Positions 1,020 to 26,936 are shown, numbered from the stretch's first letter. The stretch: 64,000 nucleotides of DNA from Styela clava (GCF_964204865.1 NC_135262.1:3534001-3598000); one strand, 5' to 3'. Translations and numbers: made by a program. The notes: a model not told the origin generated them from the sequence alone.

Positions 1020-1348
1020 CTATTCACAGACTACTGACGCATCGTTGTCGTGAGTGCACAATGCATTGTACGGTCCATACTTCCCGACGCCGCGACACGA
1101 TTCGAACTGTGTAACCTCTCTATCGCAGTGAATTGAGATCAGCCATATTTTCCCTTTTCCTTCACCGAATCGAAATCCGACTCCCGCTTCTTTCGCTTTA
1201 TTGAATCCTAGTTCCCGACAAGCTAAGTATGCCTCATCCATTCCCCAAAGGTATCCACATATTGTTCCCCATTCTCCTGCATGGAACACTTCCAGTCTCC
1301 CTTCGCTGTCAGAATTTCCTCCTGCGAGTCTCAGCTGTCCATCTTTAA
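1020..1348 (-). CDS. Gene A' SRCR exon
   Basis: Identical translation to 11523-11851; acceptor AG at 1349-1350. Confidence 0.85.
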
Positions 1349-3531
1349 CTGAAATACAGTTACCTTATAAGTGTGGGACATAATTAGTAGTAAGTTTCAA
1401 AGATGTCCCTCGAGTTGTCCCCGAACCTGTTTTTGGAAATACTGTGATAATAGGAAACGCTCCCGTTCTGTTTGTTTTGTTTTAATACGACAAGGCTTTC
1501 TGAAACAAAGGACCCTGTTGTTAGGGAGTCAGATTCAAAAGCAAATCTGTCCTTAATTTTTTCCCGCCAACCCAGCACATAATGTTGCACAAATTGGCGC
1601 GTTGTTAGGTACATCAACCTCACTTATTGGAGATCCCGTGTTATGGTAGTATTTTTATAGATATTTCCTCTAAGCAAGGTCACGAGAAATTACTTAGAAA
1701 TTGACCTCCGAGCGAAGCTACGCGCGACTACCAAAATGCCAAGAGATTCCATTACAATCGGCCTAACTACCGACTCGTACAGTTCAATACTTACTCTCAC
1801 ACGTTGGTCCATTTCGCGTGTATGGTTTTTGACATTTACAGTCGTACTTTTCATTGCCTAAACGTTTGCATATTGCATTGTTACCACACGGGTTGGTATA
1901 ACAAGGATTAGAATCTGAAAATTTATAGGGATGTTATAGTTTTTATATTTAATTATTTATATTTTATGCATCGTGCTGATCGTTGAGGATACGCTGGCTT
2001 TCGCACCTTTGATTATCCTAACTGGGTTTGCAGGTTCGAAACGGGTGAAAAGAATCTCGCGGAAGATGAATCTGTAATTCGCGTCCCCTCCCTTTTCGTA
2101 ATTGCTTGCTGTTACCGCTTCCTTCCCCATCAAGTCTATGCATCCAAAACAAATACCTGGCTAACTAATCTTATAACCGACATGAACTGGTATCTGGCCT
2201 TTGTTTGCTATATGATAAACCGCCTTATCGGCTATTCGTTCCCCGGGGATAAATATGAAAATCCTATTTATCTTTTTTAAGGCCTTATATTTGCAAACTA
2301 TTGGTACTTGATTTTATTATTTATTTCCCATAGTCTTTAGTGCTATTATCTGCGTGCAAGGAATTTTCGAAATATCAGAGTGAAATGTTCATGTACCAAA
2401 GCATTTTTGAATTATTTTATGCGCCTACATTCTGCCATATTACATAAGTATTCCTATTGAAAATCTTACCTTGTTTTTTATTTTGTCCAGTCGCAGCATT
2501 TCCCTTTTTTAAATCTTCGATACTTTTAGTCTGCTCGTCGTTAATTTTACGAAGTTGGTTCAATTCCGACAGCAAAAAAACGATTTCTAAATGTAGATCA
2601 ATATTATTCTGTATTCGAAACACGAACAGTGCTACTTTGGTGAGCAGCCTCAGCGGTTGTGAACTTGAAGATTTTGGTTCGTACCAAAGTACCAAAGTAT
2701 CAACATAAGATACATGGTTCAACTCTGGTAAGCGATTGAGATCACGCTAAGCAAGTGAGATCGCCTTACACCAGTGTTTCTCAATCCATGGTACGCGTAC
2801 CACTAGTAGCCACACAAAATACTCCCATAGCCCCCCTTGAAAAGATAAAAATAAGTAAAAAAAAATGAATTTTTTGTTGGTACGCAGCCCGAGTAAATTA
2901 CACAAAAGTGGTGCGCAGTCAGTGAAAGATCAGTAAACCACTGCCTTCCACGAATATCAACGCTTCAAATTATCATTCTATGATCTGTTAATGCAAGGGT
3001 TCTGATTTCCTGGGAAATGATTTTATGTTATAGGATTATTAATCTCTCAACTTTCCTCACCAACCACGAACTTTGTACATTCCCGATCAGAACTAATAAT
3101 TGGGCAACAAATTCCTATATTTCGATATAGCTCCCTAAATATTTTTTTAATTAATTAATAAGAAACACAGCTACATAGAGACACTACTAAGAGACACAGA
3201 GTCGAAATGAGCCCGTATCGGATCTCCTATAGTGTCTGTTTCTGCATTAATAAAATGTTCAAATTTCACAAATTTTTAAACTGTAAGAATATGAATTTAA
3301 ATGAGACGACCCGTAACAGTATTTTACATTTCAAAATGCCTCCGATATAGCCTTTTGTGCCTCTTTTGGAGAGAATATTTACCGTGGACGTGTTACGTGC
3401 AGTTAAGAAACTCCCGATATAGAAAACAATCTAAGGCAAGAAGATATAGCGATAAACAATGTAAGAACAACGAATGAAATAAATACCTCCATTCTTCAAA
3501 CTTTCAATTTCACTAGTGAGTGTCTGTACCT
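1020..3531 (-). CDS. Gene A': inverted duplicate of gene A, exons 2-5 only (3487-3531, 2470-2586, 1795-1914, 1020-1348); no copy of exon 1, so either a 5'-truncated paralog/pseudogene or an alternative cassette
   Basis: Reverse-complement match to gene A exons with identical lengths (45, 117, 120, 329), intact splice sites and no stops. The SRCR peptide is identical to gene A. Homology ends in intron 1 at 4179/8923. Confidence 0.78.
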
Positions 3532-8375: not shown

Positions 8376-11300
8376 ATGAATTGGGTTTCCAATAAATTAT
8401 TTTTCACCATATGCCTCTTCGTCCACCTTTCAATGGCAGAGTATTTAAATTGTCGTTTCAAACCCGGATGCGATGGCAATCGATGTGATCCTTCGCCTTC
8501 ATCTCTTGAGCAAGGTTTCGGTATTTCTGATTATTTAAAGAAGAAAGAATTTCCCATAACTTGTGAACAGAAAAAGGAAGTTTCAAGCGATGTTGCTAGA
8601 CTATACAGCGAAAATGCTGACAATAGATACGAAATAAAACAGTTAAGAAAAGGTAAGTTGTTCAAATTGGGGCTCCCGAAGTATGCGAACCAAGATGGCG
8701 GACATCGGAATGTAATTCGTGTACTAGGTTAGGGTTAGGCCATAATTTTAGATATAAATACTACGGGAGGCTCTTGGCTAGTCTTCGAACTGATAATAGG
8801 ACTAAAATAAGGAAAATTGGAAAAAAATTATCGCCTAACCCTAACCTGTTACCCATGTTACGTTCCGATGTCCGCCATCTTGGTTCGCATACTTCGGGAG
8901 TACCAAATTTTTTAATAATGTTCAAAACAAAATTCAGTGTATATTTCACCCATAAAAAGTTAGGAATGAAAATGTCCATCCCAGGATAAATAATTTATCT
9001 CATTCATCCAGGGAAAATTCAAGGGGCAATTAAATGGTGAATAGCTGCCTTCGCCCAATTAACAATAAATCAATAATAATAAAAAGTATAGATATCGATT
9101 AGACTCATATTGTAAAGCCACTTTGCAATAATTTTAAGTTCTCTTATTTTTTCAGAGGTACAGACACTCACTAGTGAAATTGAAAGTTTGAAGAAGGGAG
9201 GTATTTATTTCATGCGTCGTTCTCAAATTGTTTACCGCTATATCTTTCTGCTTTAGATTGCTTTCTATATCATGAGTTTCTTAACTGCACGTAACACGTC
9301 CACGTGAAATATTCCCTCCAAAAAAGGCACAAAAGGCTATATCGAAGGCATTTTGAAATGTAAAATACCGTTACGGGTTGTCTCATTTTAATTCATATGC
9401 TTACCGTTGAAAATTTATGAAATTTAAACAGTCACTAGAGGAGATCCGATGCAGGCTCATTTTGACTCTGTGTCTCTTAGTAGTGTCTCTATGTAGCTGT
9501 GTTTCTTATCAATTATTTAAATCAATATTCGGGGAGCTATATATAGGAATTTGTTGCCAAAATATTAGTTCTGGTCGGAAATGTACAAAATTCGAGGTTG
9601 TTGAGGAGAGTTGAGAAGTTAATAATCCTCTAACATATAATCATTTTCCAGAAAATCAGAACCCTGTTTTAACAAACACAAAAGCGAATTAACAGATCAT
9701 AGAATGATAATTTGAAGCGTTGATATTCGTGGAAGGCAGTGGTTTACTGACCTTTCACTGACTGCGCACCACTTTTGTGTATTTTACTCGGGCTGCGTAC
9801 CAACAAAAAATTTTTTTTTTTTTTTTCATTTCTATTTTTTAGGGTGGGGGGCTATGGGAGTATGTTATGTGGCTTCTAGTGGTACGCGTACCGTGGGTTG
9901 AGAACCACTGGTGTAAGGCGATCTCACTTGCTCAGTGTGATCTTAATCGCTTACAAGAGCTGCACCTTTATGTTGATACCTTGAACCAAAATCTTCGCGT
10001 TCACATAACCGCTGAGGCTGCCCACCAAAGTAGCACTATTTGTGTTTCGAATGGTTCCATTACATTTGAACCCACGTACATTTGAACCCATGACAATTGA
10101 ACCTGTATGCTATTGCACCTATGAAATTTTTTTTGTTTCACGGATAGTTAAACCCATACTAACCCTAGCCCATGGGTTTTAGCACCCGCATATAGATTCA
10201 ACCCGTAGATATACGCATGGGTTCAAATGTACATGGGTTCAAATGTACGGTCACCGTTTCGAATATAAGATAACATTGATCTACATTTAGAAATCGTTTT
10301 TCTGCTGTCGGAATTGAACCAACTTCGTAAAATCAACGACGAGCAGACTAAAAGTATCGAAAACTTGAAAAAAGAAAATGCTGCGACTGGACAAAATAAA
10401 AAACGAGGTGATGTAATTATTTTATTAAATTGTTAGATTTTCAATAGGAATACTTGGTATTATGGCTGAAAGTAGGGGCATAAAATCATTTAAAAATGCA
10501 TTGGAACATGAACATTTCACTCCGATATTTCGAAAATTCCTTGCACAGATAATAGCAAAGACTATGGGAAATAAATAATAAAGTCAAGTAGGACTACAAA
10601 TATAGGGCTTGAAAAGGATATAATTTGACTTTCATATTTATCCCCGGGGAACGAATAGCCGATAAGATAATAGCCGATTTATCATATGGCGAACCACGGC
10701 TTCACATTCAGATACCAGTTCATGTCTGTTATGGGATTAGTTAGCCAAGTATTTTTTTTGAATGCATAGACTTGATGGTAAGGGATGCCGTAACAGCACG
10801 CGCCACGAAAACCACCTTACGGCGGTGCGAAGTCTAGATTCATCTCGCGCAAGATTCTCTTCACCCGTTTCGAACCTGCGCACACAGTCAGGGTATTCAG
10901 AGGTGCGATAGCCAGCGTATCTTTAATGATCAGCACAATGCATGATATAAATATTTTAAATTTAAGAACTCTAACATTCCTATAAATTTCCAGATTCTAA
11001 TCCTTGTGATACCAACCCGTGTGGTAACAATGCAATATGCAAACGTCTGGGCAATGAAAAGTACGACTGTAAATGTCAAAAACCATACACGCGAAATGGA
11101 CCAACGTGTGAGAGTAAGTATTGAAGCCGATTGTAATAAAATCTTTTGGCATTTTGGTAGTCGCGCGTAGCTTTGCTCAGGGGTCAATTTCTAAGTGATT
11201 CCGCGTGACCTAGCTTAGAGGAAATATCTATATCTAAATATATCTAATCATTGAGCTTGATGTACCTCAAACAACGTGCCGATTTGTGCAACGTTTTGTT

Positions 11301-11851
11301 CGGTGGAATTGAAAAATTTAAGAATAAGTTTGCTTTTGAATCTGACTTCCTAACAACAGGTTCCCTCGTTTCATACAGCCCTACCATACTAGAACAAAAC
11401 AAACAGTACGGGCGCGTAGATTATCACAGTATTTTCAAAAACAGGTTTGGGGACAACTCGAGGGACATCTTTGAAACTTACTACTAATTATGTCCCACAC
11501 TTATAAGTTAACTGTATTTCAGTTAAAGATGGACAGCTGAGACTCGCAGGAGGAAATTCTGACAGCGAAGGGAGACTGGAAGTGTTCCATGCAGGAGAAT
11601 GGGGAACAATATGTGGATACCTTTGGGGAATGGACGAGGCATACTTAGCTTGTCGGGAACTAGGATTCAATAAAGCGAAAGAAGCGGGTGTCGGATTTCG
11701 ATTCGGTGAAGGAAAAGGGAAAATATGGCTGATCTCAATTCACTGCGATAGAGAGGTTACACAGTTCGAATCGTGTCGTGGCGTCGGGAAGTATGGACCG
11801 TACAATGCATTGTGCACTCATGACAACGATGCGTCAGTAGTCTGTGAATAG
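8376..11851 (+). CDS. Gene A: secreted coiled-coil/EGF/SRCR protein, 5 coding exons (8376-8652, 9156-9200, 10291-10407, 10994-11113, 11523-11851), 295 aa
   Basis: All introns are GT-AG and phase 1. Exon lengths 277+45+117+120+329=888 nt give an open frame to TAG. Signal peptide MNWVSNKLFFTICLFVHLSMA; Cys module LNCRFKPGCDGNRCDP...KEFPITC; heptad exons EVQTLTSEIESLKKG and EIVFLLSELNQLRKINDEQTKSIENLKK; EGF DSNPCDTNPCGNNAICKRLGNEKYDCKCQKPYTRNGPTCE; SRCR GQLRLAGG..EGRLEVFHAGEWGTIC..CTHDNDASVVCE. Confidence 0.88.
8668..8905. mobile_element. MITE family with long TIRs (CAAGATGGCG motif, TTAGGGTTAGG); other copies 16628-16739, 19678-19795, 22806-22917, 25214-25450, 25812-26049, 27633-27859, 51478-51567 (half)
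   Basis: ctcccgaagtatgcgaaccaagatggcggac ... gtccgccatcttggttcgcatacttcgggag; 6-bp AT-rich flanking duplications at 19678 (atattt), 22806 (aaaatt) and 25812 (tatttt). Confidence 0.85.
10053..10255. mobile_element. Mutator/foldback-like MITE with 9-bp TSD GTTTCGAAT, right arm only
   Basis: TSD at 10044-10052 and 10256-10264; inverted sub-repeats tacatttgaaccca / tgggttcaaatgta; single gtttcgaat in the left arm (about 2614-2622, reverse). Confidence 0.8.
11523..11851 (+). CDS. Gene A terminal exon: 6-Cys (group A type) SRCR domain
   Basis: tttcag acceptor at 11522; LRLAGG, GRLEV, GEWGTIC, CRELG, FGEG, IWL and ASVVC SRCR motifs; stop TAG 11849-11851. Confidence 0.93.
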
Positions 11852-12168
11852 TGTCGCTCAACTATTTTCTATCAATAATACGTATACAAAACTACAAAAT
11901 TTCTGCGGCCCGGTTTTTCACAAAAATATACTGCGCTTGGATATATTTCAGTGCTTTTAACTATGACATGGACAAACTACGGCCCAGGGGCCAATAGGTA
12001 AATTTCTCCAACGAAAGTTTGATGTTTCATCTAAAAAGAAAATAGCTCAGGAAATTCGTTGATATTGGTATTGCCAGTTGAGTAGCCAGTTGTGTATTGT
12101 ATTGATTAAAATTGATATGCTTGATTTCCTGATGTAAATTTGGGTAAATAAATTGGAGAAATACGGCA

Positions 12169-12270
12169 AATAAAACGTTGTGGAAGGTCAATTAAGACTT
12201 ACACTTTATCCACATACGTCTCATACAAGTCACCGTTTCTGATTAATATACCGGAGCATCTGGAAATAAA
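12169..12270 (+). terminator. Candidate polyadenylation signals of gene A
   Basis: AATAAA at 12169-12174 and 12265-12270, both retained in the inverted copy. Confidence 0.4.
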
Positions 12271-13151
12271 TGATGTGTAAATGTTCCACTTCTCGGGTCG
12301 TTATATACAAATTTTTATTAGAGAATATATGCATTTATGAGCGAATGACTGAGCCTAGTTCTGTTATTATTGCACGTAAATTTATACCCGTAAACTGCGC
12401 GTAACGTACTTTTTTGAAAACTTGAAATTCTTTTTGGATCCCAATGTCTACCCATTCGAACTACAGATTTTGGGATTTTTTGTAGAGTAAGGGTTGGGAA
12501 TGCAGATTGCGCTAAAAATTCAAATTTTCCAATTGTTCCAAAACTTGTTCCTAACCTGATACTTACTAATTACTCATCGATCTTAATCGGTAAGTATGTT
12601 GATAGGTATTTGTCTGTTTGTCTGTCTGATAGATGCACGCGATATCTCACGAAGTCGAGGTTGAATCTGCTCAGAACCAGAAGCCTATTGATTTTGGATG
12701 AATTATGTTGTATAATTAGCGAGTTATTATTTAATTAGTGATGGAACACGCGGTGTCACTATAGAGTCCTGAATAGAAACAGCAGTTTAGATCGATAAGT
12801 CTTCGGTCTCCGACCGATATTCTCGTTTGTTATTTTAAAACGTGACGCGGGTGCTTTTCCAAATCTCACATTTTTGCATTAGCGGCGGGGCTTTGAACAA
12901 AAGATCCCAGATTTGTTATTCTCTTGACTTTGAGTCCGGTTTCGGATCAATTAATTGGTGGAACCGAGCATTCAGATTCAGACATTTTCGCCATGCAAGA
13001 ATCAATATAGAACAAAACAACAAGAACTTTCTAGTCCATAATCTGCGTTGGATAATTATCAGAGTAATCAACGCGAAGTCATCGAGGTCTTATCAGTCAG
13101 CTTGCCGTGTGTGTGTTGCAAGGTTGCGCTCATTCACAGCATTTGGTTTTG

Positions 13152-13454
13152 TTACTTATCGATCTTATGATCGGTGAGTATGTTGATAGGTATTTCTCTG
13201 TCTGTTTGTTTGTCTGTTAGATGCATGCGATATCTCATGAAAGCGAGGTTGAATCTGCCCCAAATTTTGCATGTGCATTCACCATAGCTCGTACCAAAAG
13301 TCTATTGATTTTGGATGAATTATGTTGTATAATTAGCGAGTCAATAATTAATTGGTGATGGGGCACGCGGTGTCACTATAGAGTCAGAGTGAATGAATGG
13401 GGAACCCCTAACTTACATCGATAAGTCTCCGGTCTCCGACCGATATTCTCGTTT
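13152..13454 (+). mobile_element. HINE family 1 copy
   Basis: Same termini and GTCT microsatellite as 15255-15552. Confidence 0.8.
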
Positions 13455-13737
13455 ATATTATCATTTGTTATTTTAAAACGTGCATGTAGCAGGCTAGTAT
13501 GCTAATGTTGCATGAACTACCTGTAGTATCATGAAAATTGATTTCAGTCTGATGCTCATGACCCTGGTAAGTAACAGAACCATAACTCGTAGTAATAATA
13601 ACAAGTTAGTGCAGAAACATGGATGGGAAACTATAGGACTGCTTTCTTCAATAGTAATACGTCGGGCAGAATTGTTCACAGATATTGGTGCTGATGATTA
13701 AAAGTTATTTTTGATCCCTAGCTGACAATATTGAATA

Positions 13738-14031
13738 AATGAGAATAACGATCAGAGACCGAAGACTTATTGATCGGAAGTTAGGGGATCCCACAAAACA
13801 GCGCTTCTACTCCATAGTGTCACCTTGTGTCCCATCACTAACTAATTAATAACTCGCTAATTATACGACATATTTCATCCAAAATCAGTAGGTTTCTGGT
13901 CCGACATATGATGAATGCACATGCAAAATCTGGAGCAGATTCAATTTCGCTTTCGTGAGATATCGCGTGCAACTAACAGAAAGACAGACAAATACCTATC
14001 AACTTACTTACCGATTAAAATCGATAAGTAA
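13738..14031 (-). mobile_element. HINE family 1 copy (opposite orientation)
   Basis: gagaccgaagacttat...acaaatacctatcaacttacttaccgattaaaatcgataagtaa. Confidence 0.8.
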
Positions 14032-14334
14032 TAAAGCTTTTGTTAAAGTCGTTATTGATTGAAAAGGCTTTGATGTTGGTGAAAATTATATTCTCACATC
14101 GTTTTGATTTTAACACGCTTACCATTAGTTCCTGTTAACTTGATTCCGATGAGATTTACGATAGGATTGAATACGCTGAATTTTCATTTATCGCTTTAGG
14201 AAGAAAATCCAACGCGGCGGTTCAATGACACGGCGAACCACGGCCTCTTGACGGATTATGGTGTGTATGAATGAACTGAAGTTTTACTTTACTTTTAATC
14301 GAAACGATCTCAAATGCTGGGGTATAGACTAGAC

Positions 14335-14730
14335 CAGGGGTCGGCAACCTTTTGTAGCTCGCGGGCCAAAATTAGGGCTGCAAGTCATTGGCGGGCCGCA
14401 CATATTTTTAGAAAGTTGAAAAACCGAACGAATGGTACTTTTTATAATAAAAATCAAACAGTGATACATCTCTCGAATAGAATATAGATTTATTTTCTCA
14501 TTGCATCTCATAAAATTCCATCTGAATATTTTCGTCGCCATTGAACCCTTTGCACTTAGTTTATGCGTTTTGTTGCCATTTGCTTAATTATAATTAAATT
14601 ATAGGATTATTAAACGAGTAATTGTGCATTATATAATTGTTAGGTTATAATATAATTTAGTCTAAAGAATATATTCGTCAAAACTGATGTTTTGTTACTA
14701 TAATTTAGTGAAGTGCCGCGCCGACCCCTG
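14335..14730. mobile_element. hAT-type MITE with perfect 8-bp TSD GACTAGAC
   Basis: TIR caggggtcggc...gccgacccctg flanked by gactagac on both sides. Confidence 0.88.
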
Positions 14731-14948
14731 GACTAGACTAAAATCAGATGCTAGTGCTTTGAATGCCAAGTGGTCGAGCAGTTTAGAACGAAATGCTTGT
14801 TCGTAAATGTAAACCAGGTCGTGGGTGCTAACCTACGCCAAACGTACATTGCTTAGGTATTGGTATTTAAAATCTCATTTCGCAATATCGCACGCACTCT
14901 GTTGTGATTTTTCAGCCCAACGTCCAATCGAACAAAGCTCAGAGAGAC

Positions 14949-15110
14949 GGCGTGTCTGATTAGACCGTTTTTGGTCCAATCAACGTTCAGGTGGCGGGCA
15001 TGTATGATTGGACTGTTTTTAGTCCATTCAACGTTCATATGGCGGGCGTGTCTGATTAGACTGTTTTTGGTCCAATCAACGTTCAGATGGCGGGCGTGTC
15101 TGATTCGACT
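14949..15110. repeat. 48-bp tandem repeat, about 3.3 copies
   Basis: Unit ggcgtgtctgattagactgtttttggtccaatcaacgttcagatggcg; explains the repetitive ORFs 14853-15239 and 14971-15192. Confidence 0.9.
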
Positions 15111-15254
15111 GTTCGATATGGAGTTGCCGACGTCACGTGGCACACCCAATGGTGGAAATGCGCATTCCGTTGATCGCTTCACCCGTAAGTGATGCACGGT
15201 AGTAACGCATCGAAACGGGTTAGCTGTGTTAAGTTGCAATCATTTAGCAACTTG

Positions 15255-15552
15255 TTACTTATCGATTTAAATTGGTAAGTATGTTGATAGGTATTTGTCT
15301 GTTTGTCTGTCTGTTAGATGCACGCGATATCTCACGAACGCGAGATTGAATCTGTTCAAGATTTTGCATGTGCATCCATTATATGTCGTACCAGGAGCCT
15401 ATTGATTTGAATGAATTATGTCGTATAATTAGCGATAAATTAATTAATTAGTGATGGGACACAAGGTGTCAGTATGGAGTAAGAGCGCTATTTTGGGGGA
15501 TCCCCTAACTTTCGATCGATAAGTCTTCGGTCTCTGACCTATATTCTCGTTT
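15255..15552 (+). mobile_element. HINE family 1 (non-autonomous Helentron/DINE-1-like); further copies about 15-302(-), 12566-12827, 13152-13454, 13738-14031(-), 29254-29700(-, partial/tandem), 29793-30170(-)
   Basis: 5' TTACTTATCGAT subterminal IR with a nearby partial IR, (GTCT/GTTT)n microsatellite, 3' GATCGATAAGTC IR, then hairpin TCGGTC-TCC-GACCGA (perfect at 12803-12817) and a T-rich end; no TSD evident. Confidence 0.8.
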
Positions 15553-16067
15553 TATTGTTTCACTTGAATAAGTAGCACTACTATATATAACACGTTGCAA
15601 AGTCAAAGCCTTATTCGAAGATATCGACTATTTAAAAATACAATCGTGTCATTCGTGATACGCAAAGATGTCGAAAAACTCTCAGGTAAGTAGTATCAAC
15701 ATTATATTCAGACTGATAGATTCATGCTACTTGGCCGAAGTCGCACTTTAACTGCGCGTTAGGAATATAAGACATCTCACTCTGCCAGAATTCAGTTCAA
15801 ATCTCACTATTTTACTTATGTCTTGTATCATTGCTGAATTCCACGCGCTTCTTTAAGGTAGTTCAGGCGAATGCATGCCATTGATAGCGTTCCATCAAGT
15901 CTATGCATTTGTGACTCCTAACTGAAATGGTAGCCGACGAGAGGCTTTGGTTCTGGATACGATATAGGTCGTAAGACTCGTAATGTTAGCTTCCTTTCCC
16001 GGAATAAATCTGAAAATATTGTATTGCAAAGTATGTAAATTACGTTCAAATTCCAAATAAGTTAGAT

Positions 16068-16380
16068 CAGGGCTACTCAACTGGCGGACCGCGGTCCAAA
16101 TCCGGACCTTTCGGGTATTTAATTCGGATCGCTTCAAATTCTTTATTTGAAATTATCAGCCGCAATTTTGTTTTCTTTTTTTATAAAATCCCTCTTATAA
16201 AATTAAATATATATGAAAATAACTAGAACACCACAACAAACAATCTTGATTAGCTAATAATCATTAGTCGGCCGAGGAAGTGCGTGTTTAAGGGTGCCGA
16301 AATATCATTTCTGGAAAGACTGGACCCAAATATTTTTGAAGTTCTGTATGCGGATCTTCGGTAAAAATAGTTGAGCCCTG
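16068..16380. mobile_element. hAT-type MITE; similar elements 43277-43506, 50028-50328
   Basis: cagggctactcaact...agttgagccctg; TSD agttagat/agttagtt. Confidence 0.75.
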
Positions 16381-17322
16381 AGTTAGTTGACATCTGCTCC
16401 TGCGCCATAGACTTTAATAAATTACTCCTTTACCGTTTACAGAAGCCGAAGAACATTTACACTTTAGTCTGTCACACATATTTATGTTATCATGGGCTGG
16501 CTGAATGACTCGTCAGCTACGTTGGTGTAAATGGTAATTGTTGCTTAATTACTGCCTACTCTTCTATTTATTCGAAAAATCGCTTAGCAGAACGTTTCAA
16601 TTTCAATCAAGAGGACTAACGATTTTTAGGACCTCCTGAAGTATGCGCACCAAGATGGCGTACAACCTGAACTCAGGTTGTGTACCTGATTAGGGTTCAG
16701 GTTGTGCAACATCTTGGTGCGCATACTTCAGGAATACCGTTTTTTACAATTGCATTCTAATCGAATGACAATATTGACTGTTCAAGAAGGCTGGTGGCAA
16801 TGACATTATCCAACTACGGTAAGATACAAAAATAAATATAATGATTGTTGAATTTATAAACCACCACAACGTACTTTGTTCATGTTATTATTTGTTCATT
16901 CGTATTGTTTACCAACAGCCGAAATGAATGAACAAATTCACCACAATCAAAAAAAAACTCGTAAAAAAATCTCTAATATTAGAGTGTCAAAGAAAACGGG
17001 CGACGACATCAACCAACCGAGGGGAGATAATTCAATAAAAAAAATAATTGTTCATTCAATGCGGATAAGTTTCTAAAATGTTTTTAAATGCCTCCACGCT
17101 ATTGGTTTAAACAAGGCTCTGTAAAAACAACATTCAATTATACCATATATCGAGACATTATCGTTTATTATGGCCTTATTATGTTTATTCCTTTTCGAGC
17201 CTTTCTAGGCAGGGCTTAAAATTTTATGGTCTCCTAAATTAAATCGGTCACCTATATGGAGCACTTAAACACACGATACTGAAGCGTAGCTTCTTGTATT
17301 AACTTACATTTGAATGGGACTA

Positions 17323-17626
17323 CAGGGAGTCCTCGACTGACGACGTTGTTCCGTTCTCGAGACGCGATGTAACCCGAATTTCAGTGTCGGAACATTATAC
17401 TGTACAGTACATAAATTACTCTATACATATCGTACTGTATTGTAAAGTATGGTACAGTAATAAAATGTACAAATAATGCAAAAAATTACTTTATTAAAAA
17501 ACATATATCACATGAATGAAAGCAAATACTGTACAGTACAATATTATCTTTTATATTTTTTTATGGATTGCGTTCGTAACCTCGAAACAGCTTAAGTCGC
17601 AACCGTCGTAACCAGAGCACTCCCTG
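17323..17626. mobile_element. Tc1/pogo (Tigger-like) MITE, TA TSD
   Basis: ta|cagggagtcctcgactgacgacg...cgtcgtaaccagagcactccctg|ta. Confidence 0.78.
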
Positions 17627-17790
17627 TATTGCTTATTGCATGGTAGGCCATAGTACAGGAGTGCCTTCGAATTGGAGGATGAAGCAGACGAAAGACTTTG
17701 GAAGGTACAATAGATTCTCTCTGGTGTAATAAAAGGCAATAAATCCCAAATTTGTTCACGTGAATGGTCTGAATACATTTTTAAATCATT

Positions 17791-18326
17791 TATTAGGCTT
17801 CCCGCTGCTTGTCAGCAGGGAACCTATTGTATTCCTGTGTTTTATTATTATTTATTTTTATTATTTTTTTTCAAATTGGTCCTACAAACTTGAAATTCGC
17901 CTCAAATGTGCAGAAGTTCTCAGCTAGCAATAAAATGCAAATTTTATGCATGACTGACCACGCTTTCACGCTCCAGTGAGCAAAACGCGTCTTCAGTTTT
18001 TTTGCGATTTCTCAAAATTGATACATGCTATTGGGTTGAAATTCATAACAATGATTAATGGACATGTTTCGGATACGATATGTCAAGGATACGCATGAGT
18101 GACCTCGGCGATACGCTCCAGTGAGCAATATAGGATTTTCATCTTCTTCTCGAGAACGACACTACTTAGAGACTTGAAATTTACATCACATGCAGATAAT
18201 AAGTCCCCCATCATAAATTGCAAATTTTATGCATGACTGACCACGCTTTCACGCTCCAGTGAGCAAAACGCGTCTTCAGTTTTTTTTACGCGGGAAGCCT
18301 GTTAAAGCTGCACGTAGCTCTAGTTT
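17791..18326 (+). mobile_element. HINE-like family 2 with internal ~65 bp direct repeats
   Basis: Subterminal IR aggcttcccgc...gcgggaagcct, (TTA)n tract, 3' hairpin agctgc-ac-gtagct followed by ctagttt; direct repeat 17937-18002 / 18219-18285. Confidence 0.6.
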
Positions 18327-19840
18327 AGATTTGATATTCGAATTTATAAAAACTATTGGTCACTATTGCGCTTAGAGAGGAGAAGTTTTCAATTGATATT
18401 GACAAAGGATTCTATTTGTTGAAGCTCGAGTCAATGTTGCCAAGCCCGGTAGCACTAAGCTACTAGTGAGGTAGTAAGTCTAAGGTGAATCGTAGTTGAT
18501 TACTTTAGTAACGCACACAATTGTATTGAGAATTTTGCCTTTGGGTCCCGCAAACCACGTGAAAACGCGATGGTGGTAAAACAAATTTCAAATATTTTGG
18601 CCAACTGCGCACCAAAGCAAAATCGCCTATTGTAAATGTTTTCTTAGTTCTTGGGCAACCCAGGGTTTTGTCAGGCCGATCAGCTTTATTACAGAGCTTC
18701 GTCCGGCGTTTGTAAACAGGCTCAAGACTGCAATATTTGAGTCGGTGTTTTAAATACAGGGTGAGTAAACACCCGCGCTTTGATCTAGATAGCCTAACCC
18801 CCTGGTGCTTTCACCATTTAGCTAGGATTCACTCAACGTAGCGTAGCGAAATCGCCCGCGCACACAAAACACAGGATTGGTTAGAAAAAGCTGACCTTAA
18901 GCAGGTTGGAATGTTTAGGGAGCGCTTCGTTCATTGCAATAATATACGAGGTCGGCGCTAATAGATTTCGTCAATCTATGGATGAAAATTGATTGTCGCT
19001 GGGTTTTTATAGATGAGTGTTTGAGGTATATGTAGTTAGCTTCTTAGTTAGGAATAGATAGGAATAAATGTGAAGAGTGATTATCACACCCACTGTTGTC
19101 TCTTCTTGCGACTTCAAGTTGGGTTTGATAATTTAGTTTTCACAGTTCTAGGAACGCTTTACGGGAATAAATGATGTATTGGTTCCCAAACGTCTTGTTT
19201 GGGGATCAAACTGTTGTAGTACACTAATTGTTAGAAGAAATATCAGCCGAACTGCTTTTTTGTTAGCTAAAAATTTCAAGGTGGTAATCGTAGTGCAATG
19301 CTGTAATAAGTAGATGGGAGTTTCATAGATATGGAAAATGCGGGTCATTATAAACCTCGTTTTTCCTTTCATATCTACTGTCAATAACTGTATTCCGAAA
19401 TACAAAATTTACATATACGTGATGAGTCCATCTTTAATTTTTCAGTTTATTTGTACTATTTTACACACCAGTGGTTCTAAATGGAACATAAATATCCAAA
19501 ATAAATCCAACAAAATCGAATCTAACAAATATTTATATTTTTAATTAACTTCACGCTTCCTTAGAAAATTATCTACGCCCCCTCGTGGGTCGCACCACAC
19601 CTTCTGAGAACCACTGTTATACATCATTAATATCATTGGTTTATTATGTTGAACATTGTTATTGTATGTATATATTTGGGCGCTCCCGTATTATTTGTAC
19701 CTAGATGGCGCACAACCTGCTAACCCTAACCCGGTACACATACTGTAATCAGGTTGTGCGCCATCTTGGTACAGATACTACCGCCCGGAGAACCTATATT
19801 TGTACAAATTGAACTGATCTGGGAACATATGGTATAGAAG

Positions 19841-20166
19841 CTATTCACAGATAACAGAAGCACCTTTGCCATGGTAGCAAATTATTTTGCCGATATTTTG
19901 AATACCGATATTACATTCGGAGAAAGTGTTCTCAGTGCCTTTGCAATTAGCAACATAAATCCAAATCCGCCCGCTTCCTTTTCCAAAAAGCGCGCCTTTC
20001 AGCGCAGATGTTGCCTTTTTGAATCCTAAAGTGCGGCAAACAACATTCGCATCTTTCATGTCCCAATGATCATCACAAAAAGTTCCCCATTCTCCGTGAT
20101 AATAGATTTCAACTCTTCCTTCCTTGTCTGAATTTCCACCAACGATTCTTAGTTGTCCATCTCCAA
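19841..20166 (-). CDS. Gene B terminal SRCR exon
   Basis: ttacag acceptor at 20167-20169; canonical SRCR motifs, 6 Cys, TAG stop. Confidence 0.92.
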
Positions 20167-23100
20167 CTGTAACAAACAAAAGCATGTATTAGTGAACGCC
20201 CTATGTTTCTTCATTTCTTCAAGTTGTTCCATTGAATATTTAAAATTTGTCAAAACTCCGTTGACGTGAATTGAGATTTGGAGACAAACAATAGCTGAAT
20301 ATTTTTGCCGATTTATTTTTTTGTCTAAAATTGTCAGAATGAAAGATTCGGAGCTTAATTGAATGAATAAATATAGGCGACTTTTAATCATTACAACACT
20401 CCAAATGATGTTCTTTGGTTGATTTGTATTCCGTGAATTTACTATTACCAATGTAGCGTAGTAAATCTCGTAATAGATAAAGACACACCTTTGCAATTCC
20501 TTCCGTCACCGGTGTATGGTTTCTTGCATGTGCATTTATATCGATGAAAATCAACTTGTTCACATTCTGCATGCTCATGACATAAATTTGATAGGCAAGG
20601 TCCGATTGGTAACTCTGCTGCATTATTTAGAAATAAATATATTAGTCTGTAAGATTCTTTTATGTTTTAATTCCATTATGGGCCCCTATTAAAATACCGC
20701 AGAAAAGTCTCACTTCTGCAATCCATTCCGTTGCCAATGTATGGTTTCTTGCATCTGCATTGATAACGATTAGAACCAACGTTTTCGCATTCTGCTTGCT
20801 TATGACATTGATTTGAGCAAGGAAAAGTACCTGCAACATGTATAAATGACTGACTATATTACCTTTTCAGAAAATGTTTCTATAATGCGCCCTAATTAAA
20901 ATGCGATTATTAAAATCGCACAGAAAATTTTTAATACTTATACATATATATGATTACTTCTAACTTGGTTTAATGGAACCTTTTTTTTTCTGAGTTCGAC
21001 TGCTTCAATAAAGTCTTGCAAGATTAAATATCAAAATTATGCGCTCATTAAACAACCAATAAAAATACAGACCAACTTCAGATGTATTTTCATATTTATG
21101 ATTTAGGAAGACACAAATTTTCTTAATAGATTGTTTATTTTATCAAGGTGTTCATTTTAATATAAACCAATATACAGTCTTCTTTCTTTTTGATTAAACG
21201 TGTTATATAGCGTGTCTAAAAAAATTTACAAAGGCAATTTATCGATACACTATATTGTTTGGGTCCCCACAAATGTATTTAAATGAATTAAAAATACTTG
21301 CACATTTACCGATTGAAGTGAAACTTTGTGGACCCTTTCTGCAAACTGATATCCCGTCACCAACATATGGTTTCTTGCATTCACATCTATATTGACTGGA
21401 ACCAACATTTTGGCAATCTGCTAGTTTATGACACGGATTTGAAGTGCAGGGTAGGCGAAGGATACCTGTAATGTGTCAGATAAACTTTATTGTTTTGTGC
21501 AAAGTATTTTTGATTTAAGACATAAATTCTCTTTATAGATTATTTATTGCATCAAGGTATTCATTTTAATATGAACCAATATACAGTATGAGGCGTGAGC
21601 TGTCTAAACTTCTTTCTTGTTGAGGGGCCAATAAAATATTGAAGTTGCAAAGGGAATTTATCGATACCATATATTGTTTCGGCCCTCACAGATGTATTAA
21701 AATGAAATAAAAATACTTAAAACAACAAACGCTTTATGGACACTCTGTATATCTCATCCACACAGCGACTTTTATAGAACTTGTATCCAGTCTGTTAATT
21801 ATCTTATAACACTATAAATACCACTGGAATAATAAACAATAGGGGCAATGAGTGCTAAAAACTTCCTGGAGGGAGACACGAGCCACAAAGTTTGGGAACC
21901 ACGATATTATTGGTTTAGTGACTTATACGGTCCATTCAACGTGTACTTTTACAACAGAACAAATATTTACCAACACAACGATTGTTTTGTAACGTATATC
22001 CTGGTGCGCACTTGCAAACTCCTTTTCCATTGACATTAGAACATTTTCGATTGCGTTGACATTTTACTGTTGAACATGGATTAATATCTAAAAAAGAAGC
22101 AAGAAAAGTGTGAAGCAAGAAAATACAATGTTCAATAAAATGTGACGGCGTTCCGGAAATGTGTGTACCATAATGGAGGTAACTAATTCTGTTCGCCTAC
22201 TTTACATCAAGTTGCGTAAAAAGACTAAAATCTATGGGCAGGGGGTATATTCACTTGGCTAACACAGACAGTCCCCGATCTCGTAGTAGAACTAAAATAA
22301 GGAGAATCGGAATAAAATTATGGCCTAACCCTAAACTGGTACACTACTACTCTTTCGACAACTATACTTTATATTTTCAGACACCATCATTAATTACTTC
22401 TTCAAATTTACGAGAATACAAAATTTAGTGCGGCATGTAACTATATATTTTAATGTAAGTGTTCAACCAAGTATTGTTGTATCGCAGTAATTAGCGAAAT
22501 GTGTGACGGAAATTGCTCAAAACAAAAGTTCAAATATTAAAAATACTCTTATTAAAATACCTATAGGGCTTGGTTTCTGCGAATCCAACTCATTCTTCAA
22601 CTTTTCAATTTCTTTGGTTTGATCTTTGTTAACCTGACGAAGATTGTACATGTCTACACGGAAAACATTTATTTCTCTGAGGAGGTTTTTTGTTTCTTTC
22701 CGAGATTCATTGATTTCTGAATGAATACGCGAGTTTAAAGAGAGCCAAAGCAGTGGTTCTCAACTTTTTTTATTTCCGTGGCCCGCTTTTGTTGCACGGA
22801 AAATTCGGACCTCCAGAAGTATGTGCACCAAGATGGCACACAACCTGAACACAGTATGTGTACCAGGTTAGGATTCAGATTGTGCGCCATTTTGGTGCAC
22901 ATACTTCGAGAGTGCCGAAAATTCTGTCGCTTATTGAAATCCATATGCAAGACTACCAGAAAAACAAAAAAAACTATTTGCAAAGATACCCACTTTTATT
23001 GTAATAATTAAAATGAGAATGGCCACTCGTAGCAAAAACAGCCTCATCATTCATTGCTGCTACAAACAAAGTTTAGCAATTTTTATTAGGTTTCCGGCCC

Positions 23101-26100
23101 ACCTTAAAATGTTTATGTGGCTCAGAGGTGGGCCATGGCCCGCTGGTTGCGAACCAGTGAGCTAATGGAAATAGACTTATGTATTTGCTGAAGTGTTATA
23201 GATTATTTTTGACCAATATCAGCATGAGCAGGTAAACGGATAATATTCAAAGACGGTTTATTAACAGCAATTAAAACTGTCCTACATAAATATAAAAATT
23301 TAATTGAAATATCATGTTGAGTTTGAATATTTTGAATGAAAGTTGTTACCTCTTTATGAACTCAACGGTCATCGAAAAAAATTTATATTCTTCGGTCGAG
23401 TTGAACACATCACAAATTGGGCCCATAGTTAACAAAAATATCAATACCAACAGCAGAAAGTAAACAGAGAGGGAGGTTGAAAGAAAAAATGGAAACATTT
23501 ATTAAATTTTTGCATAAAACTTTTACAATACTTACCAGTTTGTGAGGTATTGATTATCTTTTTTAAATCTTTAATTTCTTGTTTCAGTAATAACAGATCT
23601 GCAATTAGGTGAGATAAAGTATTAGGTTACTTTAATAATAAATTTAAGCTAACTGGTTATCTCATGTTGAGGGAATTTTATAACTTCATCAAATCAAGCC
23701 ATAAACAAGATAGAAAGTTTTTTACAATTTCACAGTCATGTTGTGGTTTTTCATAGATTGAGAAAACAAATAAATATTTTATTGTCATTTCTAGTACAGG
23801 CCCATTTTTTTACAGTCTTTAAATACAAGTCCAGCTTGTGTATCAGAACTCGCATCGTTAAGTTTGGATAAGGTGATAATTTTATTTAGCTTCTAAAGTT
23901 TTATCTTCCAGACAGATTCAAAGTTGCTGTTTCAGGTTTCATTTAATTGAATGCGTACATTTTTGGGTACTTCCGTAGCGTATGTACCAGGCTAGGGTTA
24001 GGCCATAATTTTATTCCGATTTTACTTGTTTTAGTTTTATTGCGATTTTGGGGACTGTCTTGTTAAGCAAGTGAATATAACTCCTTTTCTTAGGCTCCAG
24101 TCCCTTTACACAACTTGATCCAATTAAAGCTTATGTAGATGAACACGCATTGTTAAAATTTTGAATCAAGTTATTAATTAAGATATTCAAAGCCTGTAAA
24201 GTTTTATATTTGAGGCGGATTCAAAGTTGCTGTTTCAGGTTTCATTTAATAGAATGCGTAGATTTTTGGGTATTCCCGTAGTGTGTGAACTAGGCTAGGG
24301 TTACCCCCTAATTTTATTCCGATTTTCCTTATTTTAGTTACGAGTCCGGGAAATGTCTGTGTTAGCCAAGTGAATATCCCACCTGCCCTAAGGTTTCAGT
24401 CTCTTTATACAACTTGATGTAAAATAGGTGAACAAAATTAGTCCCTCCATATTAGTACATACACTTCTGGAGCGCACATTTTTGTACGAACCGTTCGTGC
24501 TTTTGCTCTACCTTCACCTTTCACTAATTTAATATTCAACTACTTTTTATTTGCTGTATAACGATATCGCATTTTTATCAGGTTGTTTTATACAGTGATA
24601 AAATTGTCATAAGATAAACTCTACAATGCAGCTATATTTTGTCTGTTATTACCGTGTTTCCCCGGAAATAAACAGTGTCTTATTTCAATGTTCTTTTAGA
24701 AATAACACTAGGGATTTGGGGGATGTCTTTTATTTTCATTCAGAGAATTACAAGATTTTCAAATCTACAATATATGAACAATGATATTCATTTACTTATA
24801 AATAACTTTATCTGAAATAACTGCTAAACATAGTTTATTAACCATCTAAAACAAGTGGGAAAGATTTCTTGCTTTTGACTATGTCAAAATAAAATATTGC
24901 GCTACCGACTAGGTCTTATTTTAAGCGGAGGGCTTATATTGAAATCATTTTAAAAATTCATGCTAGGTCCTATTTTCAGGGTAGGTCTTATTTACAGGGA
25001 AACACGGTAATTTTCAAATTTGAATATTGTGAATATTTGTCACCTTGATCGTTTGAAGAAATCTTCGGACTCTCAAGCATCTTTTTCAACTCTGCAACTT
25101 CTAGTTTTAGTATGTGCAGGCCTGTAAAATGAATGGTTAGTGAAAATTTTGGGATACGTCAATATTTGTGTTCTGTCTCTGTGACAATTTCTCCATAGTT
25201 TGCTCACGCAATTGGGTACTACCAAAGTATGTGAATCAAGATGGCGGACTCCGGAACGTAGTATGTGTACCAGGTTAGGATTAAGCAAGAATTTTATTGA
25301 AAACTTCCTTATTTTAGTTCTATTACGAGTTCGGGGACTAGCCAAGTGACTCCCGTAGTATTTGTACCTGAAATTATGACCCAACCCTAATCAGGTACAC
25401 ATACTACGTTCGTTGTCCGCCATCCTGGTTCCCCTTCTTTGCGACTACCCAGTTCTGTAGTACGAAACATAGTGAAAATTTCGAATATGTCAATATGCTA
25501 TCATTGTGATAATCTATCCATAGCATTGCTCACGCAAATGAACGTTTGTCACCTTGATTGTTTGAAGAAGTCTTTTGACTTTTAATCAACTTGATTTCTT
25601 TTCTCTGCTTCTCATTCAATTTTCGAAGTTTATCAAGTTCTTAATACAGGATATAATATAAATTGAAGTTATAAAATGAAAATTTGTTCTCAGAATTCTC
25701 CAAAGTTTTTGATACGGGTTTAAAAATATTTTGTTCTTTATTTTTCCATTTTTGTAAAGCCCATTCCCCGTTTTGCTTCTGTGCTTGAAGGTTTGCTTTA
25801 AGGTTTATTTTTGATACTCCCGTAGTATGTCAACCAAGAAGGCGGACACTGGAACGTAGTATGTGTACCAGGTTAGAGTTAGGTCATAATTTTTGGTACA
25901 AATACTACGGGAGTCACTTGGCTAGTCCCCGAACTCGTAATAGAACTAAAATAAGGAAAATTTGAACAAAATTATGGCCTAACCCTAACCTGGTACACAT
26001 ACTATGTTCCGGTGTCCGCTATCTTGGTTCACACACTACGGCAGCGACGTATTTTCTTGCATAGACTATGAATGTGGGATCCTTTACACGATCGTCTGTT

Positions 26101-26936
26101 AGCCGAGTAATATGGGTTGTTATATCAATAAACAAAAATAATTTGTTCTTTTATTGTATCCCGTAGGAAATCCAAGTTTTCATTTTTCATTTTGGAGCTA
26201 TTAATAATTTTCACATGCATAAATTTGTTATTTCTTTTATAAATTTATTTCCATAACTGTGATCTGGAAGCAGATGTGACCATCGATATAATAAAATCCA
26301 CTTTATAAAGGTATTGATTTGTAATATCAACAACTTTATATTCTCAGGGCAGCGCTTGTTTAAAAATTCAATCAAAGTCGTCTTATATATTATGCACAAA
26401 TGAAAACATCTATAAACCTTCAATATGCGCTTTAAAAGAGTATTTTGACTCTTAGCATATTCGACACCTCATGTTTATAGAATACTACGCTTAATTGATA
26501 TGCCTATTACCCGAGGCAAGGTTTTAAGAGCACTATTTCTTGTTGTTTTTTTTCTCAATCTTCAAGTTATATTGCTTCCTTGCAGTTTTGTTGTCGACGT
26601 AGAAGTACACCCGACGCCGCCATACATCATTAGAAGTTATTAAATTTTCGTTGATAAATTACCTTGTTTCAATTCTTTCATTTCTTGTCGATTGTCAGCG
26701 TTATCAGCATAAAGTTTTAAAACATCGTTTGATGCTTTATTCTTCATGTCACAAGTTATAGGAAATTCTTTCCTTTTCAAATATTCTTTCACATTGGAAC
26801 CTGGTTTGTTCCAGAGAGGCAATGGATCACAACCATTAGCGATACATCCTCGTTTAAACTGACAATCCAATTTTTCTGCCAGGTTTCCGTTACCAAACGA
26901 AATGATTATAACAACGATAATAGAAATCCAACTCAT
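19841..26936 (-). CDS. Gene B: paralogous secreted coiled-coil/4xEGF/SRCR protein; exons 26663-26936, 25553-25639 (uncertain), 25044-25121, 23536-23598, 22561-22716, 21971-22087, 21310-21465, 20714-20830, 20489-20617, 19841-20166 (about 500 aa)
   Basis: Exon 1 MSWISIIVVIIISFGNGNLAEKLDCQFKRGC...KEFPITC aligns without gaps to gene A exon 1. Heptad exons: ELDKLRKLNEKQRKEIKLIK, GLHILKLEVAELKKML, DLLLLKQEIKDLKKII, EINESRKETKNLLREINVFRVDMYNLRQVNKDQTKEIEKLKNEL. Four 6-Cys EGF exons and an SRCR exon GQLRIVGG..GRVEIYYHGEWGTFCDDHW. All internal exons are phase 1-1 with GT-AG. Confidence 0.82.
20489..22087 (-). CDS. Gene B EGF-like exons x4 (21971-22087, 21310-21465, 20714-20830, 20489-20617)
   Basis: DINPCSTVKCQRNRKCSNVNGKGVCKCAPGYTLQNNRCV; PCTSNPCHKLADCQNVGSSQYRCECKKPYVGDGISVC; PCSNQCHKQAECENVGSNRYQCRCKKPYIGNGMDC; PCLSNLCHEHAECEQVDFHRYKCTCKKPYTGDGRNC. 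Confidence 0.88.
24652..25007. mobile_element. Tc1/mariner-type MITE, TA TSD; second copy about 36143-36540
   Basis: ta|ccgtgtttcccc...gggaaacacgg|ta; internal ggtcttattt repeats shared with 36143-36540. Confidence 0.78.
25812..26049. mobile_element. Same MITE family, full copy with tatttt TSD
   Basis: Long TIRs; tatttt on both flanks. Confidence 0.8.
26663..26936 (-). CDS. Gene B first coding exon (signal peptide + 4-Cys module + start of coiled coil)
   Basis: ATG at 26936, hydrophobic leader, phase-1 donor gtaat; 36/69 identities to gene A exon 1 by hand count. Confidence 0.85.

What the first reader, a model, noticed from the sequence alone, without database searches (positions are those of the whole stretch)
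8376..26936. Unrecognised family of secreted Cys-module/coiled-coil/EGF(n)/SRCR proteins
Genes A and B share signal peptide - 4-Cys module - coiled coil - EGF x1 or x4 - single terminal SRCR, with no transmembrane segment and no collagen. Established: class A scavenger receptors use coiled coil + collagen + terminal SRCR, and collectins/ficolins use an N-terminal Cys region + stalk + terminal recognition domain. Inference: these are soluble oligomeric pattern-recognition (or gamete/matrix) molecules in which EGF arrays replace collagen and SRCR is the head. I do not recognise this architecture as a named family.
Basis: partly seen in the sequence, partly recalled or inferred. Interest (0 to 1): 0.72.

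Follow-up and report, generated by a model that had tools for sequence, protein, structure and literature searches.

The report
Sea-squirt secreted proteins with swappable heads
These two sea-squirt genes belong to an apparently undescribed family of a few dozen secreted proteins that share a small cysteine-containing base and a helical stalk but carry different binding heads, a design that other animals use for innate-immune recognition and for matrix cross-linking.

Summary
Genes A (+, 5 exons, 295 aa) and B (-, 10 exons, 500 aa) match database proteins letter for letter, and A is Styela clava LOC120333179. Both run signal peptide, 4-Cys module, coiled coil, EGF x1 or x4, one group A SRCR, with no transmembrane segment or collagen. 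The reading changes. The defining part is the 40-residue module (C-x5-C-x4-C-x~25-C), with no Pfam, PDB-sequence or fold match. It heads 56 database proteins; all 50 named hits of the profile search are S. clava. Heads: 43 of 56 divergent C-type-lectin-like, 3 SRCR, 1 Sushi, 9 none; one has a collagen stalk. A and B are therefore minority head-swapped members, and EGF is an optional spacer, not a collagen substitute. All 13 introns are phase 1, which permits exon shuffling. Heads diverge faster than the module. Against a textbook pattern-recognition role: the Ca2+ ligand site of SALSA/MARCO is lost in A and incomplete in B, and the lectin-like heads lack sugar motifs. Most likely a multivalent innate-recognition platform (0.5); matrix cross-linker is the main rival (0.3). 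Oligomeric state is untested. New variant of a known design.

The parts
8376..8652 (+). Gene A exon 1: signal peptide (about aa 1-21), 4-Cys module (C26-C63, nt 8451-8564), first heptads of the stalk
   Evidence: identical to P0001
9156..9200 (+). Gene A exon 2: coiled-coil exon, phase 1-1
10291..10407 (+). Gene A exon 3: coiled-coil exon, phase 1-1
10994..11113 (+). Gene A exon 4: single EGF-like domain
   Evidence: Pfam EGF E 2.5e-07
11523..11851 (+). Gene A exon 5: group A SRCR (6 Cys) and stop; Ca2+ site-2 positions are G218/Y219/N288
   Evidence: Pfam SRCR E 8e-23
26663..26936 (-). Gene B exon 1: signal peptide, 4-Cys module (C25-C62, nt 26864-26751), first heptads
   Evidence: model identical to P0002
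25553..25639 (-). Gene B exon 2: coiled coil
25044..25121 (-). Gene B exon 3: coiled coil, ends almost like exon 2 (likely duplicate)
23536..23598 (-). Gene B exon 4: coiled coil
22561..22716 (-). Gene B exon 5: coiled coil
21971..22087 (-). Gene B exon 6: EGF-like 1 (below Pfam cut-offs, six Cys)
21310..21465 (-). Gene B exon 7: EGF-like 2
   Evidence: Pfam EGF_3 E 1e-09
20714..20830 (-). Gene B exon 8: EGF-like 3 (74% and 78% nt identity to EGF 2 and 4, tandem duplicates)
20489..20617 (-). Gene B exon 9: EGF-like 4
   Evidence: Pfam EGF_3 E 6e-10
19841..20166 (-). Gene B exon 10: group A SRCR and stop; Ca2+ site-2 positions are D424/D425/K493
   Evidence: Pfam SRCR E 3e-28
1020..3531 (-). 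Copy C: inverted duplicate of A exons 2-5 (3531-3487, 2586-2470, 1914-1795, 1348-1020); frame and splice sites intact; no first exon in the window

Best explanation
A and B are secreted members of a Styela-expanded 'platform plus head' family. The first exon supplies a signal peptide, a small disulfide-bonded module and the start of a helical stalk. Phase-1 exons add stalk length, optional spacers (EGF here; collagen or Thr/Pro-rich linkers in relatives) and one terminal binding domain. The usual head is a divergent C-type-lectin-like domain; in A and B it is an EGF(n)-SRCR unit, most simply gained by exon shuffling. Proposed working: the chains associate through the coiled coil (dimer or trimer), the module caps or clusters the stalks, and the grouped heads bind repetitive foreign or damaged surfaces by avidity in blood, tunic or pharyngeal mucus, acting as agglutinins or opsonins in the way collectins and the collagen-free ascidian lectin GBL do. 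SHOWN: gene structure, domain order, family membership, variety of heads and stalks, faster divergence of heads, loss of canonical Ca2+ ligands. INFERRED: secretion, oligomerisation, direction of the head swap, and the immune role with its ligands.
For: The module profile finds 24 representatives in a full HMMER read of 1.84 billion proteins and 50 hits in the word-indexed search, all 50 named S. clava (43 distinct gene labels from two annotation series). Of the 56 distinct proteins, heads are CTLD-like 43, SRCR 3, Sushi 1, none 9. The profile of 15 members hits PLA2R, LY75, mannose receptor, tetranectin and E-selectin lectin domains in the PDB. All four Cys and a Gly are invariant in 46 of 46 aligned rows. 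A hydrophobic leader precedes the module in 55 of 56, and 55 of 56 have no transmembrane-like stretch. Distances from module to next Cys range from 23 to 382 aa in the 10 members measured. Among 38 complete lectin-like members the module is more conserved than the head in 689 of 694 pairs (67% against 43% mean identity; 9 near-identical pairs of 703 left out). P0012 joins the same module to 22 Gly-X-Y triplets and a lectin-like head, a collectin-like order. In two trees A and B sit with lectin-headed P0003 and P0023 (UFboot/SH-aLRT 92/89 and 81/91). All 13 introns are phase 1. Precedents read as passages: SRCR/lectin head exchange on one stalk in class A scavenger receptors (PMC3567963); coiled coil in place of collagen in Halocynthia GBL, which activates C3 through MASP (PMC8605247); expansion of MBL and ficolin genes in S. 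clava (PMC7540406).
Against: No expression, binding or challenge data were found: six family gene ids gave 0 hits in 6 supplement files of PMC12992692. The Ca2+ bridge that SALSA needs for the three ligands tested (D1019, D1020, E1086; PMC7043408) maps to G/Y/N in A and D/D/K in B, and the site-3 acids are also replaced. None of 38 complete lectin-like heads has EPN, QPD or WND, and 33 of 38 have only four Cys, so classical sugar binding is unlikely. The module-versus-head comparison is biased because members were collected by the module. The trees rest on 76 columns and are unrooted, and one clade for the three SRCR members is not rejected (p-AU 0.069), so neither the direction nor the number of swaps is established. 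The same domain order is used by matrix proteins such as multimerin-1.
Confidence: 0.5

Rival explanations
1. Extracellular-matrix, tunic or mucus-net cross-linkers. The stalk multimerises heads that bind matrix proteins or sulfated glycans, as in EMILIN/multimerin or tenascin-type proteins, with no primary immune role.
For: Multimerin-1 has the order Cys-rich N-terminal domain, coiled coil, EGF-like, terminal globe, and is a matrix protein (PMC3342094 passages). Mature B is strongly basic (pI 9.0, net charge about +23), which suits binding to polyanions. Canonical Ca2+/sugar sites are lost. Some relatives have Thr/Pro/Lys-rich linkers (P0019, P0054).
Against: Dozens of paralogues with fast-diverging heads and exchange among CTLD, SRCR and Sushi heads is more typical of recognition families than of structural ones (general knowledge). 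A is near neutral in charge.
Confidence: 0.3
2. Gamete-coat or self/non-self recognition proteins (egg coat, seminal fluid or allorecognition), diversified by reproductive selection.
For: Apparent restriction to one species in the protein sets searched and fast head divergence. EGF arrays and SRCR domains occur in gamete proteins of ascidians and sea urchins (recalled, no call).
Against: No zona pellucida or transmembrane domain in A or B. No expression evidence either way.
Confidence: 0.1
3. A and B are ordinary members of an already named family (class A scavenger receptor, collectin, EMILIN or GBL) whose N-terminal part has diverged.
For: The SRCR domains are about 36-44% identical to the best-matching vertebrate SRCRs, and the overall domain order is shared with these families.
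Against: Transmembrane and collagen domains (class A receptors), the 7-Cys EMI and gC1q domains (EMILIN) and a lectin domain (collectin, GBL) are absent from A and B. A whole-protein search returned, besides A itself, only SRCR-limited matches covering 35-42% of the query (6 of 7 hits).
Confidence: 0.08

Closest known systems
Class A scavenger receptors (SR-AI, MARCO, SCARA5, SCARA3, SCARA4/COLEC12)
   Same: Helical stalk with one terminal group A SRCR; the family swaps SRCR for a C-type lectin head or has no head on one stalk (PMC3567963 passages), as the Styela family does.
   Different: Those are type II membrane proteins with cytoplasmic, transmembrane and collagenous domains. A and B have a leader peptide, the new module, EGF and no collagen, and lack the complete Ca2+ site.
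Collectins (MBL) and Halocynthia roretzi glucose-binding lectin (GBL)
   Same: Secreted; N-terminal Cys region (collectins, recalled), stalk, terminal head. GBL uses a coiled coil instead of collagen and works with MASP (PMC8605247 and PMC514892 passages; the primary paper was not read). Family member P0012 has a collagen stalk and a lectin-like head.
   Different: A and B have no lectin domain. The family's lectin-like heads lack EPN/QPD/WND. The N-terminal part is a conserved 40-residue module with a hydrophobic core. Whether GBL carries the module was not testable.
EMILIN/multimerin family (multimerin-1)
   Same: Cys-rich N-terminal domain, coiled coil, variable insert (collagen or EGF-like), terminal globular head (PMC3342094 passages).
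   Different: EMI has about 80 aa, 7 Cys and a WRCCPG motif, and the head is gC1q. The module here has 40 aa and 4 Cys, gives no EMI match, and the head is SRCR.
Biomphalaria VIgLs (FREPs, CREPs, GREPs)
   Same: Lineage-expanded secreted family with a shared N-terminal platform, a coiled-coil region of variable length (described for FREPs) and exchangeable heads (PMC10075465 passages).
   Different: The platform is IgSF and the heads are fibrinogen, C-type lectin or galectin. An analogy of design; no homology was tested or is implied.
SALSA/DMBT1, CD163, Mac-2BP SRCR domains
   Same: Group A SRCR with six Cys; clear sequence matches.
   Different: A single terminal copy; Ca2+ ligands of sites 2 and 3 largely replaced.

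Membership tests
Class A scavenger receptors | N-terminal cytoplasmic tail and transmembrane segment (type II) | tested here: not met
   The only hydrophobic stretch is an 11-residue leader at the N-terminus; best 19-mer hydropathy downstream is 0.51 (A) and 0.64 (B)
Class A scavenger receptors | Collagenous Gly-X-Y domain | tested here: not met
   Longest run is 2 triplets; no Gly-X-Y exon within either gene in six frames
Class A scavenger receptors | Alpha-helical coiled-coil region | tested here: met
   Heptad periodicity p=0.0005-0.021 in 4 of 7 segments; one helix on A 63-140
Class A scavenger receptors | Terminal SRCR (or lectin) domain | tested here: met
   Pfam SRCR at the C-terminus of A and B
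Class A scavenger receptors | Homotrimer | not testable with these tools
Collectins / GBL | C-terminal Ca2+-dependent carbohydrate-recognition domain (EPN/QPD, WND; motifs recalled) | tested here: not met
   A and B end in SRCR; 0 of 38 complete lectin-like heads of relatives carry these motifs
Collectins | Collagen stalk | tested here: not met
   Absent in A and B; present in 1 of 56 family proteins, P0012
Collectins / GBL | Association with MASP and activation of C3 | not testable with these tools
   Needs biochemistry
GBL-like lectins | Homology of the N-terminal region to GBL | tested here: inconclusive
EMILIN/multimerin | N-terminal EMI domain (7 Cys, WRCCPG motif) | tested here: not met
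   Four Cys and no such motif; 0 of 16 module sequences match EMI in Pfam at E up to 1
EMILIN/multimerin | C-terminal gC1q domain | tested here: not met
   The head is SRCR; no C1q match in A or B
SRCR superfamily, group A | Domain of about 100-110 aa with six Cys, encoded here by one exon | tested here: met
   Six Cys in each; matches to MARCO, SR-A, SCARA5, Mac-2BP, DMBT1
Ca2+-bridging SRCR ligand binders (SALSA, MARCO) | Acidic site 2 (SALSA D1019, D1020, E1086) | tested here: not met
   A has G218/Y219/N288 and B has D424/D425/K493; columns read from the alignment with vertebrate SRCRs and by spacing; the SALSA sequence itself was not printed
Any known fold, for the 4-Cys module | Structural match in the PDB | tested here: inconclusive
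   Model of low confidence (pLDDT 63, pTM 0.29), so the fold searches cannot decide

The most novel reading that the evidence does not exclude
The 40-residue four-cysteine module is a new small fold that does the job of the collectin collagen stalk as an effector dock (for a MASP-type protease or a haemocyte receptor). Styela would then have a collagen-free plug-in system in which dozens of diversified, Ca2+-independent lectin-like, SRCR and Sushi heads feed one complement or opsonic pathway, with A and B wiring SRCR recognition to it.
Probability: 0.12. Interest if true: 0.8.

Novelty: new variant of a known kind. Interest (0 to 1): 0.5.

Why it matters
It defines a domain without a Pfam model and a family of a few dozen 'uncharacterized' S. 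clava genes whose lectin-like heads fall below Pfam cut-offs, so domain-count surveys of tunicate immunity would miss them. It shows in one invertebrate chordate family the exchange of SRCR and C-type-lectin heads, and of collagen and coiled-coil stalks, that is otherwise inferred across vertebrate class A scavenger receptors and collectins. If the module proves to be an effector dock, it would bear on how collagen-free lectins such as GBL activate complement. The design principle itself is familiar from several animal groups, which limits the surprise.

Tried and rejected
Complex prediction of the module plus stalk as three copies was not available, so the oligomeric state is untested. The cluster look-up for P0001 could not be made, so its other three member sequences (isoforms or a product of copy C) are unseen. 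The Atlas did not hold P0001; with homologue P0013 it gave no usable hit by features and only weak helix-driven structure rows (best TM 0.52), which shows neither absence nor novelty. Single-sequence folding of A was poor outside the helix (mean pLDDT 54). The module model from 46 sequences suggests strand-helix-helix-strand followed by the stalk helix, at pLDDT 63; Foldseek found 0 matches at E up to 0.001 and VIA-align a best Z of 2.6 among 48161 chains, which does not show a new fold. The module profile found 0 PDB sequences at E up to 10. The whole-protein search was word-limited (690 candidates, 162-517 aa) and is weak evidence of uniqueness. The SRCR tree of 3 family and 8 vertebrate domains (from 5 of the 6 non-self hits) did not resolve the origin of the head (support 42/52). 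Rejected: a first exon for copy C in the window (the module profile finds only A's and B's among 3009 six-frame segments); C as a plain allele (intron divergence 11-18% and pS 8.6% against genome heterozygosity of about 1.72% in PMC7540406); lectin-like exons in the window (none). No eukaryotic genome collection was searchable, so presence in other tunicates was tested only through the two protein sets. Literature: ten searches. The two architecture searches returned 0 papers, and the Styela listings (titles and abstract starts only, 25 of 120 listed) showed nothing on this family. Subscription papers, including the GBL and Styela plicata collectin papers, and bioRxiv supplements could not be seen and may bear on the novelty claim.
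Full report
Observation. The finding's coordinates are the start codons of two convergent genes. Gene A (+) has exons 8376-8652, 9156-9200, 10291-10407, 10994-11113 and 11523-11851. Gene B (-) has ten exons from 26936 to 19841. All 13 of 13 introns are GT-AG and phase 1. The 295-aa and 500-aa products are identical to database proteins P0001 and P0002. P0001 is NCBI's Styela clava LOC120333179 isoform X1, 'uncharacterized', so an independent annotation supports model A and names the organism. Pfam confirms the SRCR domains and EGF repeats, with B's first EGF below the cut-offs, and finds nothing in either first exon. There is no transmembrane-like stretch and no Gly-X-Y run. Heptad periodicity is significant in 4 of 7 stalk segments, and AlphaFold gives one helix over A 63-140, at pLDDT 68-93 for residues 81-140. 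The signal peptides are judged from hydropathy only.

What it is. I searched with the one unannotated part, the first-exon module. A two-sequence profile read against 1.84 billion representatives gave 24 proteins at E up to 0.001. A 16-sequence profile in the word-indexed search gave 50, and all 50 are named S. clava. They carry 43 distinct gene labels from two annotation series, so the true gene number is a few dozen. Of 18 rows with contig data, 11 share one 23.8 Mb contig length and the rest lie on five others. Five representatives remain unnamed, and the second search missed 5 of the 16 sequences in its own alignment, so restriction to Styela is suggested, not proven. The module is C-x5-C-x4-C-x~25-C with conserved K-x-G-C, C-D-P, G, L and E-F-P-I-x-C; the four Cys and one Gly are invariant in 46 of 46 rows. 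It has no Pfam match and no PDB sequence match. A low-confidence model suggests strand-helix-helix-strand, and the fold searches on it are inconclusive.

The 56 distinct proteins share leader, module and stalk but differ behind it. Heads are C-type-lectin-like in 43, SRCR in 3 (A, B, P0010), Sushi in 1 and absent in 9, some of which look like truncated gene models. The lectin-like identity rests on sub-threshold Pfam Lectin_C hits and on a 15-member profile that matches PLA2R, LY75, mannose receptor, tetranectin and E-selectin in the PDB. One member, P0012, has 22 Gly-X-Y triplets before its lectin-like head.

History. In trees of module plus first heptads (50 and 19 rows, 76 columns each; one protein missed by the pattern and five with identical stretches were left out of the larger tree), A and B group with lectin-headed P0003 and P0023 (92/89 and 81/91) and P0010 lies outside. 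An AU test does not reject one clade for the three SRCR proteins (p 0.069). The trees are unrooted. A lectin-like ancestor and a swap to EGF-SRCR is the simplest reading given 43 against 3, and uniform phase-1 introns make it mechanically easy, but the direction and the number of swaps are inferred.

How it most likely works. The constant part assembles and the variable part binds. Among 38 complete lectin-like members the module is more conserved than the head in 689 of 694 pairs; for the 283 pairs with module identity of 80% or more, the heads average 57% (biased, because members were collected by the module). Multimerised, diversified heads on a secreted stalk are the working principle of collectins, of Halocynthia GBL, which has a coiled coil instead of collagen and activates C3 with MASP (PMC8605247, passages; PMC514892, passages), and of snail FREPs and CREPs (PMC10075465, passages). 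Class A scavenger receptors exchange SRCR and lectin heads on one stalk (PMC3567963, passages). S. clava has expanded MBL and ficolin genes (PMC7540406, passages; its one supplement file had none of the five terms searched). A review of tunicate immunity (PMC5465252, passages) names no such family in the places read. I put an innate recognition or agglutinin role at 0.5.

Results against that reading. SALSA's binding of the three ligands tested needs a Ca2+ site formed by D1019, D1020 and E1086, and the same site matters in MARCO (PMC7043408, passages). The equivalent columns hold G218/Y219/N288 in A and D424/D425/K493 in B, and the site-3 acids are replaced in both (the place of the site-3 residues relative to the cysteines is recalled). 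None of 38 lectin-like heads has EPN, QPD or WND, and 33 of 38 have only four Cys. If these proteins recognise microbes, they do so by a non-canonical surface. The same domain order, Cys-rich domain, coiled coil, EGF-like, globe, is found in the matrix protein multimerin-1 (PMC3342094, passages), and mature B is strongly basic (pI 9.0). A tunic or mucus cross-linking role therefore gets 0.3 and a gamete role 0.1. No expression data were found: six family gene ids gave 0 hits in the 6 supplement files of PMC12992692 (main text not read).

Copy C. Positions 1 to about 4180 are an inverted duplicate of A's region 8923-12842, with exons 2-5, an open frame and intact splice sites. It differs from A at 16 of 609 coding bases, with pN/pS 0.12 (Fisher p 4e-05), while the introns differ by 11-18%. 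It has been under purifying selection and is too divergent for an ordinary allele at 1.72% heterozygosity, yet no first exon for it exists in the window. It has either lost that exon recently or is spliced to a distant one; gene B's first exons lie upstream on the same strand in a compatible phase. This is untested.

Comparison and verdict. A and B fail the defining tests for class A scavenger receptors (no membrane segment, no collagen), collectins (no lectin domain) and EMILIN/multimerin (no EMI, no gC1q). A whole-protein search returned only SRCR-limited matches besides A itself (6 of 7 hits, word-limited). Two architecture searches of the open literature returned 0 papers, and five Styela searches showed nothing on the family in titles and abstract starts; subscription papers and bioRxiv supplements were not visible. 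The module and the family appear undescribed, while the design is well known. Verdict: real, a new variant of a known kind, interest 0.5. The boldest reading not excluded, that the module is a collagen-free effector dock feeding many heads into complement, has probability 0.12 and would deserve 0.8.

Noticed in passing
window 1020-3531 (-): Copy C of gene A exons 2-5 is under purifying selection (pN/pS 0.12) but has no first exon in the window; it lies downstream of gene B on the same strand with compatible phase-1 acceptors.
   Followed up: partly
window 34863-37550 (-): Ephrin gene: two exons match Pfam Ephrin (E 4.5e-09 and 2.6e-11), followed by a Thr-rich stretch.
   Followed up: no
window about 5190-5450 (-): Broken C2H2 zinc-finger array (HTEKPY-type linkers, with stops and frameshifts), a pseudogene trace between copy C and gene A.
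   Followed up: partly
window 8664-8909, 25210-25439, 25810-26045, 27629-27867: A self-complementary repeat of about 240 bp (MITE-like) in A intron 1, with copies in B introns 1 and 2; other dispersed 200-300 bp repeat families recur across the window.
   Followed up: no
window 14949-15113: Tandem repeat of 48 bp, 3.4 copies, 87% matches, between genes A and B.
   Followed up: no
P0012 (LOC120336707, not in the window): The same module with a collagen stalk of 22 triplets and a C-terminally short lectin-like head: a collectin-like member.
   Followed up: partly
P0009 (LOC120340926, not in the window): Module, coiled coil, Sushi domain, then about 100 aa of Cys-rich sequence with no Pfam match at E up to 0.001: a possible further unannotated domain.
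   Followed up: no
P0015 (not in the window): A family member mislabelled 'golgin subfamily A member 3-like', presumably because of its long coiled coil; it has a leader, the module and a lectin-like head.
   Followed up: no
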